This document shows, in pieces, positions 33,162-41,639 of a stretch of 64,000 nucleotides of DNA (within the stretch, counting starts at the first letter, position 1; every line of letters starts with the position of its first letter). The DNA is from Eledone cirrhosa (Eukaryota): assembly GCA_964016885.1 (NCBI GenBank), contig OZ024740.1, forward strand, positions 76,632,001 through 76,696,000, in the 5' to 3' direction. The notes beneath the pieces are model-generated. The model saw nothing but the letters and a program-made list of their open reading frames with translations, was not told where the DNA came from and did no database searches. A program made the position numbers and the translations under genes.

Positions 33162-33596
33162 TACAGATTTATGTATATATTAGTAAAAACCCACCACTAC
33201 GCTACAGGTAAAATACGCACACACATACACGCACACACAAACATGACGTTCGGACAGATACAATTCAAGTTCTGGATCAGCTGTTCCACAAAACAGATAT
33301 AATTGTTATTATTATGTTCTAATATGCCCCTAGTTATGTTGTTATTCCTACACTTCCCTCAGTCCATCTTATGCTATATAATACGTTCCTTATTTTGCAG
33401 TTTATATATATATATATATATATATATATATATATATATATATATATATATATATATATATATATATATATATATATATATATATATATTATATATACAT
33501 ATATATATATATATATATATATATATATATATATATATATATATATATATATATACGATATTAAATAAATGGAAACTATATTTATAAAACCATATT

Positions 33597-33662
33597 TATT
33601 TCATTATATATATTTCAGGGATATCATATTAAAAATATGGTATGCCTTCATCAGACAAAATA
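33597..33662 (-). ncRNA. Type I hammerhead ribozyme (inverted pLTR copy)
   Basis: Reverse complement of 37667-37732. Confidence 0.8.
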
Positions 33663-34534
33663 CAATATAAACAGTCTTATAAATAGATAGATTTGACATA
33701 CCTTACAACTTCAACTTCCATTTAAAAAGTTGATTTGGTAGTGAAAAATGTTAGGGACAGTTATAAAAAGAAAGAAAGAAAGAAAGCGAAGAAAAAGAAG
33801 AAATGCATGCAACGAAAAGCAGAGAGAGATAGATATAGAGAGATAGATAGAGAGAAGAAATTCATGTAAAAAAAAAACAGAGTGAGATAGATAAAGAGAG
33901 AAAAAAGACAGAGGGAGATAGATAGATAGAGAGAGAGAGAGAGAGAAGAGAGAGAGAGAAAAAATAGAGAGAGATAGATATAGATAGAGATAGAGAGAAA
34001 GAAAATAGGTAGTTGGGCACCAGTTGAATGACGTATCAATGATATATTTATTTATTTATTTATTTATTTAGTTCTAGTATTAAGGTAGAGAGAGATATAT
34101 GTGGTTAGGAGAGAAAACAGCCGTTACATAGAGAGAAAAGAAAAATATCCAGAGATAAACGAGGCAGATTTAAAACATTATGTTTCATCAATCTAAAAAT
34201 ATCAATTCGTATGAATTAGGTATTATAATGTAAATATCAGTATTCATGAATGAGACACGTATCAATAATGTGTGAAAAATAATGATCATATGTCTAGTTT
34301 AAAATTCCTAAGTTTATAATCAGAGCTGAGATAAAAAAAACTGAGATAAAAAAACTGAGATAAAAAACTTACATAAACCTCTATGGAGTGCAAAAAGACA
34401 TGTATAATGGCCTCATACTGAAAGAACTGAGGAAAAAGTACAAGGTAGCAGATAAGGCCGAGCTTGAGAAAATGAATGTTGAGGCATCTTGTATAATGCA
34501 TGAGTTGGAAATTTAGAACAAAACACAACCTTTC

Positions 34535-38170: not shown

Positions 38171-38785
38171 GTAGATATGAAAATAATTCACTCGAGACAA
38201 GACTTATATAGAAAATAGCGTAAAATCAAAACAATAACATCAATAATAAAACATATATGGTAAATAGGTAGAAAAGTTACAGATGTAAAAAGTAAGAAGA
38301 TAAGATGGGATACATTAAAAAATAAGGAAATGAGAGAATGGAAAATATAAAGAAATAAATAAGTGAGAGCGTGTAAGTACATAGTATGTTAGTAGTAGTT
38401 TTTGAGTAAGTGTTCTTATAAGGATTCGTTGGTGGGTTTTGTGCTAATATGAAAAAACCAAATTTGAGATGTACATAGATACGTGTAGTGGCAGATAAAA
38501 GAAAAAAAACAATAAATTAGAGATTAATTGGTGGATACATGTGTGCGATTTATGGGCTAGGGATGACGGGACGTTTGATAGACGCTTGTTGTAAATGTTT
38601 TGCTGATTGTTCTATCTTAATGGGGTTAATGCTGTTTCAGGGAGAAAGAGACTGATAGAAATGTTCAGAGATTTATGATCCAGTGACCAGTTGGCCGTTT
38701 GACAGCTAATAGCAGTGCGATGGTGTGTATTCTATATGTTAAAATCTAGGTGGTTCAGTTCTAATTTTGGGGTTGCTGGTTCAAA

Positions 38786-41169
38786 TCATGGTGGTTTGAA
38801 GTTTGTGAATATAGTAGCTATTTTATGCCTACAGAAAATTGATCTTTCTATTTTGCTGTTAAGCAGCATCCCATCGTATTTTAAGATATGTAGTAGTTCT
38901 AAATTACAAAGCCCGCAGTGGGACATTCCGTTGTTGTAGGCTCTTGCTCCCGATAATTTTGACCAGCTAATCTTATATTCTAGGTGTTTGTCCTTAAGCT
39001 GCCAGATTTTATTGGCGAGCGTCGTAGAGTTCTCCAGTCTACGGTTCTTCATGGAGTGTCTGTGGACGTACCACCTTTTCTTGAACTCCCCAGCCGTGGA
39101 ACCTATGTAGTGCCAAGTAGAGTTGCCTGAATTTACAGTACACAGGTATACCATACTCGAATCTAGGCATCTATTCCGTAGTGGGCACTTATCCGGTAGG
39201 TGGCAATTACAATTTGAGGTTTTATTTTGTGCAGGTTCATCGTTGTGGTTTTGTAAGTTGTTGTGGGTGGGTTGTGAGTTAGGCCTATTAATGTTTTGTT
39301 GTGATGCGTTCTAATGTGTTTGTGGTTGTGATGTTATGTGTTTGTGTTTTGTATTTGGTGCTGTGGTGCATGTTGGTAGGTTAATTTCTTTAGAGATATT
39401 TTTGTAGTTGATCTTACGTATGTGCGATTCTATGTTGGCTGCAGGAGAGTAGGAAAGTTTTTTCTATTAAAGATTTTATGGTATTTGTGTAGTTTAGGGA
39501 GGTGTTTATCTATTAGTTAAAAGAATGTAGAAGGTAGTTTAGTTTTTATAGAGGAGTTGAATATTGAATTGAGCCATAGGTACTTTCTATCTCTGGATCT
39601 TCTATAGTTTTTGGGGGTCCTTATATTAGTGTTCTGCTCAGTTATTTTTGGTGCTCGTTGTTTAATTCTATGCCTAGTCCAGTCCTATGCTTGTTATTTC
39701 TATATGAGCGGGTAGTGTTGTTGTCGTTAGGTTTGTTGTTGTTGTCTCTATCTAGTCTCTATCTTATGTCCAGCCTTATGTAAAGCTATGTTATAATAGT
39801 TTGCGTGTTCGTTAAAAATTTCTAGGTTCGAAGATAGGCGGGATATTCTGAGAGATATACTATGTGCTATGGAGTTAATTATGGATCGGGGATGGTTTGA
39901 GTTATAATTAATGTAGGCTAGATTTTCGTTATTCTTATGGAAGAGCTCTATTAATCCTGTGTTTAGGTTGAGAGTTACATCTAAGAAATTTGCTTTTTTA
40001 GAGTTAAGTTCGAAAGTGATACCTATGCCTAGTTTATTGAAGAATACTCTAATGTTTTTTCGTAATCTTTCCATGTTTTGATTATTTAAGTTTTTGGCTA
40101 GAAGGAGTGTATCGTCTCTGTAAATTCCTCCTTGGAGGTTATTGAATTCCTTATGTACGTTGTGCGCTATATATATTCCCACCAAGTCCGTGACCTGAGC
40201 TGAGTCGTTAGATCCCATTGTGATATCGAAGCTATTCTGTCTGTTTTTTCGTTCCCAGTAAATATTTTCGAATCTAATGATAGTCCTTCTTGCAGCTAGT
40301 ATTATGTTAATTTCGTCCGAGGTAAGGTCCGAATTTTTCTGGGCAAAGGTTAGCGCTTTACCCAGGGTGACCGGGGATATGGATGAGTAGTAGTCCTTAA
40401 TGTCGAACTGTACGAAGTTAGATGTTTCTCTACTGTTTATTTTGCTGAACCAGTCTATTGCTTCGTTAGTGTTACCCCATAGATTAATTATTAGTTTGTC
40501 CTTAATTTGTGAGATTACTCTATCTAGTATATGCTTGCTAATTCTACCGATATCCGACTTAGATGGGCATATTAATCTAATTGTGGGGTCTATTTCGAAA
40601 TTATTTTTGTGATCCTTTAGGTTAAATGGGGGGTTACAAGGGGTTAGAGGCTCGGTTCTATCAGATATTTTCAGTTTTTTTTACTATGCTAAGTCCTTCC
40701 TTATTAATGATAGTGAGTGCAGATTCTGTTGTTTTTTTTTGTATTTTCTGTGCAATTCCCGGCGTATAAAATTATTGTATGTATTGAGGCTCATGGTGTT
40801 TGATGTTTTGTCTGCTTTTACTATAATACCGTTGATGTTGCGTAGTTTTGTTAGTAGTGCATTGATGTCGTTTTGTAATTTGTTGTGATGTGTCCGTTTT
40901 TTAAATTTAGTTCCACTTATCATGTTCATGAGGTCGAGTTCGAAGGCATCAAGCTGGGGGTTATTTGGTGGATTTTTGCAGGATTTGAATCCGTATTTTT
41001 CCCTAGTAAATTTCTTCGTGTTATTAGCGTGTCCTTTGTCGTAACGGTAGGCCTTCCATCGAATTCGACGGATGAAATCATTAGTACGCTGTATCATGCC
41101 GAGTGTATAGTCCTTGTTTGTAGGTATAGGTATGTTTTTCAAGGACATGCCTATGTGGTGCTTTTCCAT
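38786..41169 (-). pseudogene. PLE RT + GIY-YIG ORF with several frameshifts
   Basis: ORF pieces 40684-41169, 39748-40218 and 38786-39154; CNCHLPDKCPLRNRC linker; CGLCNLE...CRH. Confidence 0.88.
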
Positions 41170-41639
41170 GTTAGTGCTGTGCGTTAAGGTTGTTGCTTAA
41201 CCTAGTGAGAGTTGGGTATATGGGATAACAAGTTATCGTTATAGGTAATCCAGTTAGAGGTTGTGAGTACTCTGCGTCGTGGATAGTTTTAACGTACGGC
41301 TTTGTTTGACTCAACAAGATGCTTCCATAGTTATGCAGCGAGTTCGCGGTAATTTCTATGCAGGTTATACTTGGAGTAATAATAGTGAAAGAATGAAGAG
41401 TAACATGGTTGGCTGTACAATAACGGCTTTATTTAAAGTACTGACAATTGTTTCGTTGATCAGGTGTGTCTAGAGTTCGCTAATCGTTTGAGGTTGCGTC
41501 ACTCGATCCTCTATATATATATATATATATATATATATATATATATATATATATATATATATATATATATATATGAGGATCGCTGCATTTTAAAACTTAT
41601 TTAGATACACATGGTGCACTTTTTGGGCTGGGGGTGCTT

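What the first reader, a model, noticed from the sequence alone, without database searches (positions are those of the whole stretch)
33554..41510. Hammerhead-armed Naiad-type Penelope system targeting (TA)n: two families tail-to-tail, one with 820-bp inverted arms
Seen: two divergent RT + GIY-YIG elements converge on one TA tract. One has inverted pLTRs placing outward-facing hammerheads on both strands; the other has direct pLTRs with a different, long-helix-II hammerhead. At least three unrelated hammerhead families, plus decayed ones, occur in 64 kb, nearly always beside (TA)n. Known: PLEs carry pLTR hammerheads and can form inverted 5' ends. Inference: a diverse, microsatellite-targeted ribozyme/retroelement system, probably poorly annotated in this lineage.
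Basis: partly seen in the sequence, partly recalled or inferred. Interest (0 to 1): 0.75.

Follow-up and report, generated by a model that had tools for sequence, protein, structure and literature searches.

The report
Two Hydra-clade Penelope retrotransposon remnants
These are two broken copies of a known kind of jumping gene (Hydra-clade Penelope-like elements, not Naiads) that landed separately in neighbouring TA repeats; their families end at two fixed points, each just before a small predicted RNA hairpin that likely tells the reverse transcriptase where to start.

Summary
The anatomy is real; the label and the 'system' reading are not. A (+, 34376-37858, inverted arm 33554-34377) and B (-, 41511-38006) are broken copies of two families (38% amino-acid identity) with RT first and GIY-YIG last. 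That order excludes Naiad, and the motifs fit the Hydra clade (Craig 2021). (TA)n targeting, pLTR hammerheads and an inverted 5' copy with hammerheads on both strands are all published for that clade. Targeting holds genome-wide: 862 of 1069 A ends are followed by ATATATAT, against under 1% background. A and B do not share one tract: their ends are 147 nt apart, and 16 of 56 sampled loci have a similar neighbour. Not found in the papers read: (1) each family has two fixed 3' ends, 67-163 nt apart, with TA microhomology and a downstream RCUC/GAGY hairpin; this scan noted the hairpins earlier on other DNA; (2) two-armed copies use one end each (12 of 12 in B); (3) B's hammerhead has an 82-nt helix II domain and U at core position 9 (539 versus 55 matches). 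Nothing was assayed. New members of a known kind, with a testable mechanistic lead.

The parts
33403..33553 (.). (TA)n tract, left flank of insertion A
   Evidence: TRF; sequence
33554..34377 (-). Inverted 5'-truncated copy of family A (3' UTR and pLTR only), ending at fixed end 1
   Evidence: other inverted A arms end at the same point
33597..33662 (-). Type I hammerhead motif of A, inverted copy
34376..36231 (+). Family A ORF remnant: telomerase-like RT, then C-terminal GIY-YIG; 5'-truncated, one stop, one frameshift
   Evidence: intact copies L121 and L123 are 98% identical; folds
36232..37773 (+). Family A 3' UTR and pLTR up to fixed end 1
37667..37732 (+). Type I hammerhead motif of A: core CUGAUGA, 31-nt helix II domain, 8-nt palindromic stem III, predicted cut after 37724
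   Evidence: 3 pairs with compensatory changes among 12 A-type variants
37774..37858 (+). Tail of A (85 nt; the start of the 5' UTR in tandem copies), from fixed end 1 to fixed end 2; predicted hairpin 1 at 37781-37797
37859..37909 (.). (TA)n tract, right flank of insertion A
37910..37993 (.). Spacer between the two insertions, part of neither family
   Evidence: family B matches stop at 37994; 75 nt of it found in no other locus held
37994..38004 (.). Short TA run flanking the 3' end of B
38006..38785 (-). Family B 3' UTR and 3' pLTR, ending at fixed end 1
38061..38170 (-). Hammerhead motif of B: core CUGAUGU (U at position 9), 82-nt helix II domain, predicted cut after 38066; this copy lacks C15.2
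38786..41169 (-). Family B ORF remnant, full length but with stops and frameshifts: RT, then C-terminal GIY-YIG
41222..41384 (-). Tail region of B (163 nt) between fixed ends 1 and 2, here read through as 5' UTR; predicted hairpin 1 at 41377-41309, decayed hairpin 2 near 41212-41195
41383..41511 (-). 5' pLTR of B: 5'-truncated tandem copy that starts inside helix II and lacks the catalytic core
41512..41574 (.). (TA)n tract at the 5' junction of B

Best explanation
A and B are broken copies of two Hydra-clade Penelope-like retrotransposon families that inserted separately into neighbouring (TA)n sites, and their family-wide fixed ends likely mark two internal start points of target-primed reverse transcription. 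Shown: domain order and motifs, TA flanks, two fixed 3' ends per family, one end used per arm, hammerhead motifs with covarying helices. Inferred: the GIY-YIG domain nicks both strands of a (TA)n tract; the protein binds a hairpin (RCUC ... UU GAGY) in the 5' UTR of a tandem transcript; the nicked DNA end pairs with 2-6 nt of UA-like RNA 7-10 nt upstream of the hairpin and is extended; the two DNA ends are primed one at each site; a head-to-head join of the two cDNAs gives A's form (long arm with tail, short inverted arm), and a single cDNA running through a tandem transcript gives B's form (direct pLTRs). The hammerheads are predicted to be dimer-type and are probably not needed for mobility.
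For: Clade: RT fold nearest to TERT; the last 149 residues match I-TevI (Z 9.1), T4 EndoII (8.4), UvrC (6.4); RWK/RWR, DKT, CxCx5C, CxxC..E, N..CxH present and no cysteine pair between the GIY and YIG strands, as defined in PMC8557442 section 11. Targeting: 862 of 1069 exact A tail ends are followed by ATATATAT; background 0.2% in the window and 0.8% in loci. 427 of 884 B end-1 motifs are followed by TA; in the first 30, 14 run on into the tail, 12 end on TA, 4 other. Fixed ends: five families in this genome (A, B, E, F, G) each show two, 88, 163, 67, 78 and 79 nt apart. Microhomology of 2-6 nt at 10 of 10 ends, sum 36 vs null mean 18.9, P about 0.0007 (0.002 without F). CTC at +7..+10 at 8 of 10 ends; the motif was defined on A and B and then met at 4 of 6 ends of E, F, G (P 0.002; 2 of 4, P 0.045, without F). 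A CTC..GAG stem closes in intact copies of A, B, E, F, and the same pattern can be read by eye in the published Hydra-2_Amil, Hydra-1_Ajap (twice), Hydra-2_Ajap and Hydra-1_Obim consensi. Two-armed copies: 12 of 12 independent B pairs and 14 of 14 A pairs use one end each. In vitro precedent: a Poseidon element cuts and extends both strands, starts at two internal sites that bound the tail, and does not need hammerhead cleavage (PMC11167929). Independence of A and B: 16 of 56 loci hold another family's end within 1.5 kb.
Against: No RT tree with labelled clade references could be built; the tree holds only unlabelled relatives, and comparison with the published alignment was by eye. Units are longer than the published <3 kb (A about 3.9 kb, B 3.4 kb). 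Family G lacks the CTC at both ends by the fixed window. The loose hairpin descriptor alone is not enriched in the window (13 vs 11.4 shuffled); individual hairpins are weak (-2 to -8 kcal/mol for the short ones). End positions were read by eye, and the families share ancestry, so the P values overstate independence. E, F and G ends rest on 3-8 copies per end. A pairs were ascertained through end 2, so end1/end1 pairs could not be seen. In the Poseidon assay the start sites were not homologous to the target and did not differ between strands. Hammerhead regions fold no better than shuffles (z -0.2 to -1.2). Nothing was assayed.
Confidence: 0.8

Rival explanations
1. Same elements, but the two fixed ends are made at the DNA level: the endonuclease cuts TA-like sites in the element's own cDNA or tandem intermediate, and the hairpins act as DNA signals or as promoter parts, not as RT start signals.
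For: Craig 2021 attributes the tail to endonuclease-mediated resolution. All 10 ends are TA-like, as the enzyme's target preference alone would give. The D. virilis endonuclease needs the tail for recognition (as cited in PMC11167929).
Against: In the one reconstituted system the tail ends match RT start sites on RNA. The pLTRs hold many other TA-like sites that are not used. The hairpin is oriented and lies at a set distance downstream in four families.
Confidence: 0.12
2. Inverted arms arise by fold-back self-priming of one nucleic acid strand rather than by priming from both sides of a break.
For: Proposed for rotifer Penelopes from palindromes at inverted junctions (PMC3846280 passages). 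A's inversion junctions cluster at 37584-37602, beside a weak hairpin.
Against: Fold-back does not by itself explain why the two outer ends are always the two different fixed sites. Arms of very unequal length are common.
Confidence: 0.05
3. One reading: Naiad-type elements forming a coordinated two-family ribozyme system at one TA tract.
For: Naiads also prefer (TA)n, form inverted repeats and occur in Octopus.
Against: Endonuclease is C-terminal; DKT, not DKA, at the conserved position; canonical-core hammerhead in A; the ends are 147 nt apart on separate TA runs; such neighbours are common.
Confidence: 0.02

Closest known systems
Hydra clade of EN+ Penelope-like elements (Craig et al. 2021, PMC8557442; seen: text part 2 of 10, sections 11 and 12, passages, supplement parts 2, 52, 53 and passages), including Hydra-1_Obim and Penelope-13_HM
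   Same: C-terminal GIY-YIG, RWK, DKT, CxCx5C linker, CxxC and CxH around E and N, no CCHH, no IFD, (TA)n insertion, type I hammerhead near the 3' end; Penelope-13_HM has an inverted 5' copy and hammerheads listed on both strands.
   Different: New families: by eye neither protein nor hammerhead matches Hydra-1_Obim. Longer units (3.4-3.9 kb) and tails (67-163 nt against the 30-40 bp given for PLEs). Helix II domains of 31-104 nt against about 9-25 nt in the Hydra rows of File S2. U at core position 9 in most B copies. Many intact, near-identical ORFs of related families in this genome.
PAc, Poseidon element of Anolis (Frangieh et al. 2024, PMC11167929; seen: parts 1-2 of 4, the whole main text)
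   Same: Two internal RT start sites bounding the tail; AT-rich target; both strands cut and extended; hammerhead cleavage not needed in vitro.
   Different: Other clade. Its starts lie inside the ORF in an AC-rich stem-loop and are not homologous to the target; here the ends lie in the 5' UTR, are TA-like, and precede a hairpin.
Dimer-type type I hammerheads of metazoan PLEs (Cervera and de la Pena 2014, PMC4209133; seen: parts 1-2 of 4)
   Same: In pLTRs, short palindromic stem III, pairs on opposite strands 100-700 bp apart already noted.
   Different: Helix II there is 6-8 bp; A9U is not among the variants named there, nor in section 8 of Perreault 2011 (PMC3088659; its figures were not seen).
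Naiad clade (PMC8557442)
   Same: (TA)n preference, pLTRs, inverted copies, present in cephalopods.
   Different: Naiads have an N-terminal endonuclease, CCHH, DKA, usually an IFD, and no canonical hammerhead.

Membership tests
Penelope-like element (EN+) | Telomerase-like RT and GIY-YIG endonuclease in one ORF | tested here: met
   Intact family A ORF of 748 aa; best fold match TERT, E 1.5e-8; C-terminal domain matches I-TevI, Z 9.1, rmsd 2.2, 88 aligned. B by homology.
Penelope-like element (EN+) | Direct or inverted pLTRs from partial tandems, optional tail | tested here: met
Hydra clade | Endonuclease C-terminal | tested here: met
Hydra clade | RWK motif and DKT in place of DKG | tested here: met
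   B: RWK and ADKT; A: RWR (also in 3 of 16 relatives and family G) and SDKT
Hydra clade | CxCX5C linker; CxxC and CxH around the catalytic E and N | tested here: met
   both families
Hydra clade | No CCHH motif, no IFD | tested here: met
   One cysteine only between the GIY and YIG strands; motif A-B spacing equal to the published Hydra rows by eye
Hydra clade | Canonical hammerhead | tested here: met
   A canonical core with covarying helix II. B: canonical in a minority (55 matches, 2 of them apparently unrelated), U9 in most (539).
Hydra clade | Insertion into (TA)n | tested here: met
Hydra clade | Generally under 3 kb (descriptive, not diagnostic) | tested here: not met
   Tandem spacing 3.85-3.92 kb for A, 3.38 kb for B
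Hydra clade | RT groups with Hydra references in a tree | not testable with these tools
   Labelled references could only be read, not used as input; tree has unlabelled relatives only
Naiad clade | N-terminal GIY-YIG endonuclease | tested here: not met
Naiad clade | DKA motif and CCHH finger | tested here: not met
   DKT at the conserved position; no cysteine pair in the GIY-YIG core
Naiad clade | No canonical hammerhead | tested here: not met
Penelope/Poseidon, Neptune, Nematis | CCHH finger with two cysteines between GIY and YIG | tested here: not met
Type I hammerhead ribozyme | Three helices around the conserved core | tested here: met
   A: 96% of cells paired, 3 pairs with changes on both sides. 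B: 91% paired, 1 such pair, weaker.
Type I hammerhead ribozyme | Self-cleavage | not testable with these tools
   needs an assay

The most novel reading that the evidence does not exclude
Hydra-clade Penelope elements carry a clade-wide pair of RNA hairpins that set two reverse-transcription start sites; at each, a short UA patch pairs with the nicked (TA)n primer much as telomerase aligns its template, and one protein dimer primes the two DNA ends strictly one from each site. Family B shows that the element kept spreading after its hammerhead changed a conserved core base, so the ribozyme is either tolerant of A9U or dispensable.
Probability: 0.5. Interest if true: 0.65.

Novelty: new member of a known kind. 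Interest (0 to 1): 0.38.

Why it matters
How Penelope-like elements, the closest relatives of telomerase, start reverse transcription and why they leave tails and inverted repeats is still open; in the searches run here only one element had been reconstituted. These families give exact predicted start sites, a candidate RNA signal shared with coral, sea cucumber and octopus elements, and intact coding copies to test it with. The locus itself is ordinary transposon debris. The clade is abundant in this genome and invisible to Pfam and Rfam, which matters for annotation.

Tried and rejected
Rfam scan of the window: no hammerhead family, only microsatellite-driven miRNA matches below threshold. 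Pfam: no hit on the 7 PLE proteins or pieces among 16 proteins given. MFE folding does not separate the hammerheads from shuffles. The first DNA searches were biased (best hits only; the B query included flank), so flank and arm counts use position-ordered pattern hits. No intact family B ORF among the 20 best 5'-end matches fetched (longest frame 404 aa) or the B loci; 20 further matches were not fetched. The idea that U9 is fixed in all of B was dropped: 10 of 62 aligned variants and 55 genome matches have A. A first reading of the CTC motif as a linear box gave way to the hairpin reading after the look-up, then tested. The loose hairpin descriptor is not enriched on its own. The stretch 41575-42900 was translated and is not part of B. 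A sequence look-up of earlier findings and a nearby look-up returned nothing. A 2017 paper on PLE hammerhead variants that cleave as dimers (recalled) is not held and may bear on the long helix II and U9 claims; Dfam and Repbase could not be searched. The host species was not determined; earlier AI notes call the genome octopus-type.
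Full report
1. Observation. The interval holds two separate insertions. A runs 33554-37858: an inverted arm (33554-34377) joined head to head to a 5'-truncated body (34376-37858, +), between two (TA)n tracts. The arms are 824 and 846 nt with 15 mismatches and 33 gap columns. B runs 41511-38006 (-) with direct repeats of 126 nt at 91% identity. A profile built from 18 relatives finds only these two ORF remnants in the window. A lacks its first 129 codons and has one stop and one frameshift; B has several. 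The two 3' ends are 147 nt apart: A abuts the tract 37859-37909, B abuts an 11-nt TA run at 37994-38004, with 84 nt between. A descriptor scan gave 5 type I hammerheads against 0-1 in 20 shuffles; with B's, read by eye, there are four types, all with an 8-nt palindromic stem III in family copies. Rfam reported none.

2. What it is. Tandem A copies gave intact ORFs (L121, 748 aa; L123, 733 aa), 98% identical in DNA to the window copy. Pfam found nothing on them. A protein search gave 23 relatives at 31-37% identity, one named, from a coral. The predicted fold is nearest to telomerase RT, and the last 149 residues fold as GIY-YIG (I-TevI Z 9.1). The order is RT then endonuclease. Craig et al. 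2021 (PMC8557442) define Naiads by an N-terminal endonuclease and no canonical hammerhead, and the Hydra clade by a C-terminal endonuclease, RWK, DKT, CxCX5C, no CCHH, hammerheads and (TA)n insertion. Both families meet the Hydra list, A with RWR. Its supplement lists 27 Hydra families, 24 with (TA)n, one from Octopus bimaculoides, and Penelope-13_HM with an inverted 5' copy and hammerheads on both strands. By eye neither family is Hydra-1_Obim. A and B are 38% identical and are sisters among the 19 rows of my tree (100/99), which holds no labelled reference (14 of the 23 relatives were used).

3. Targeting and copy number. An exact 25-mer at A's tail end occurs 1069 times, 862 followed by ATATATAT; background is 0.2-0.8%. 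A 20-mer near B's end occurs 884 times, 427 followed by TA; of the first 30, 14 continue into the tail, 12 end on TA and 4 are other. These counts are floors. A search with a distant relative gave 89,216 first-look candidates, 63 scored, most with open frames; 20 were fetched and fall in three more families, E, F and G. Of 56 position-ordered A and B loci (60 less 3 from the window and 1 duplicate), 16 hold another family's end within 1.5 kb, and 5 of 27 B loci hold an A-type end. The tail-to-tail pair therefore needs no special explanation.

4. Ends. Each of the five families has two fixed 3' ends, 88, 163, 67, 78 and 79 nt apart; E, F and G rest on 3-8 copies per end. All 10 ends overlap the TA repeat by 2-6 nt (sum 36, null mean 18.9, P about 0.0007). 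A CTC lies 7-10 nt downstream at 8 of 10 ends; seen first in A and B, it was then met at 4 of 6 ends in E, F and G and missed at both G ends. Earlier AI notes from this scan describe paired hairpins there. I tested this: CTC pairs with a downstream GAG, closed by an A-U or G-C pair and usually with a 2-nt bulge, in intact copies of A, B, E and F; B's long tail is a 61-nt insert in hairpin 1. The same pattern can be read by eye in four published consensi from coral, sea cucumber and octopus. Against it: a loose descriptor is not enriched in the window (13 vs 11.4), the short hairpins are weak, and the families are related. Two-armed copies use one end per arm: 12 of 12 independent B pairs (13 found, one seen twice; all three pair types were detectable) and 14 of 14 A pairs (ascertained by end 2; one call corrected and one unrelated pair dropped by hand). 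The window's A copy follows the rule.

5. Hammerheads. A-type: canonical core, 96% of cells paired and three compensatory pairs among 12 variants. B-type: 5-bp helix I with one compensatory pair, 9-bp base of helix II around a 64-nt interior, weaker support. Position 9 is U in 539 genome matches and A in 55, and in 48 and 10 of 62 aligned variants. A9 forms a sheared pair with G12 in a solved structure (PMC11300833 passages), so U9 is likely to lower activity (inference). A9U was not named in Cervera 2014 (parts 1-2 of 4) or Perreault 2011 section 8, and searches did not turn it up; one relevant paper is not held. MFE folding does not beat shuffles. No activity was measured.

6. Mechanism. Frangieh 2024 (PMC11167929, main text read) showed for a Poseidon element nicking and extension of both strands, two internal RT starts that bound the tail, and no need for hammerhead cleavage. 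Applied here (inference): the endonuclease nicks (TA)n; the protein binds a hairpin in a tandem transcript; the DNA end pairs with the UA patch just upstream and is extended; the two DNA ends take one site each; two cDNAs joined head to head give A, one cDNA running through the tandem gives B. The pairing step differs from the Poseidon result, where the start was not homologous to the target. Rivals are DNA-level cutting at the TA-like sites (Craig 2021) and fold-back self-priming (PMC3846280 passages).

7. Novelty. The finding as written is a known kind under a wrong name. The families look new, but Dfam and Repbase were not searchable; a 2026 repeat annotation of Octopus vulgaris counts 31 recently active Penelope-like families and does not use the words Hydra, Naiad or ribozyme (PMC13282606 passages). 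The start-site hairpins, the TA pairing patch, the strict one-end-per-arm count and the U9 long-helix hammerhead were not found in the papers read or in the searches; the hairpins were noted before by this scan on other DNA. The retrozyme preprint (10.64898/2026.07.22.740005) was read only in part 1 of 5, and its supplements were not seen.

8. Verdict. Observation partly confirmed, interpretation partly supported, new members of a known kind, interest 0.38.

Noticed in passing
window 2542-2784 (-): Stub of an A-related subfamily (77% identity) with hammerhead core at 2738, hairpin 1 and a different tail ending on (TA)n.
   Followed up: partly
window 28242-28956: Two-armed insertion with a hammerhead at 28431 (-): 10-bp helix I, 104-nt helix II domain, palindromic stem III; the inverted arm lacks the core and ends on (TA)n.
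   Followed up: partly
window 16061-16650 and 17059-17648: Direct repeat of about 590 nt, 998 nt apart, each with a hammerhead (96-nt helix II domain) and a start-type hairpin at 17537; no ORF of 150 aa or more; ends on (TA)n. Possibly a non-autonomous, retrozyme-like unit.
   Followed up: partly
window 15020-15236 and 21702-22080: Near-perfect palindromes with one arm extended by a tail that holds an RCTC/GAGY hairpin (15105 -, 21974 +): likely two-armed stubs of further families, too short to hold a hammerhead.
   Followed up: partly
window 41504-41584: An 8-nt inverted repeat brackets the TA tract at B's 5' junction, as if the cDNA end had copied the flank in reverse through a short microhomology. 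One case only.
   Followed up: no
family A copies, positions equal to window 37584-37602 and 37635-37648: 5' truncation and inversion points cluster at two spots, giving many palindromes of about 450 nt with outward-facing hammerheads that could be mistaken for MITEs.
   Followed up: partly
L161-L180: Three more Hydra families with intact ORFs at 91-100% identity within family, so probably recently active; their 3' UTRs are long and full of microsatellites.
   Followed up: partly
window 24186-28051, 54378-58295, 62547-64000: Copies of an APE-type non-LTR element (Pfam RVT_1, zf-RVT, Exo_endo_phos) at 81-95% identity, with (ATT)n/(AAT)n runs at the ends; another RT remnant at 60168-62475.
   Followed up: no
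window 6104-8508 and 8678-11263: Two adjacent tandem arrays, 54 nt x 44.6 and 47 nt x 55; the 54-mer array is open in several frames.
   Followed up: no
window 47757-49251 and 46756-47223: Inverted repeats of about 620 nt (98%) around a spacer with a TA tract, and of 134 nt (99%) next to a TA tract; family not identified.
   Followed up: no
window 35430-35550: Asparagine-rich insert in family A's ORF between RT and endonuclease, absent from the relatives; N-rich inserts were described in rotifer Penelopes.
   Followed up: no
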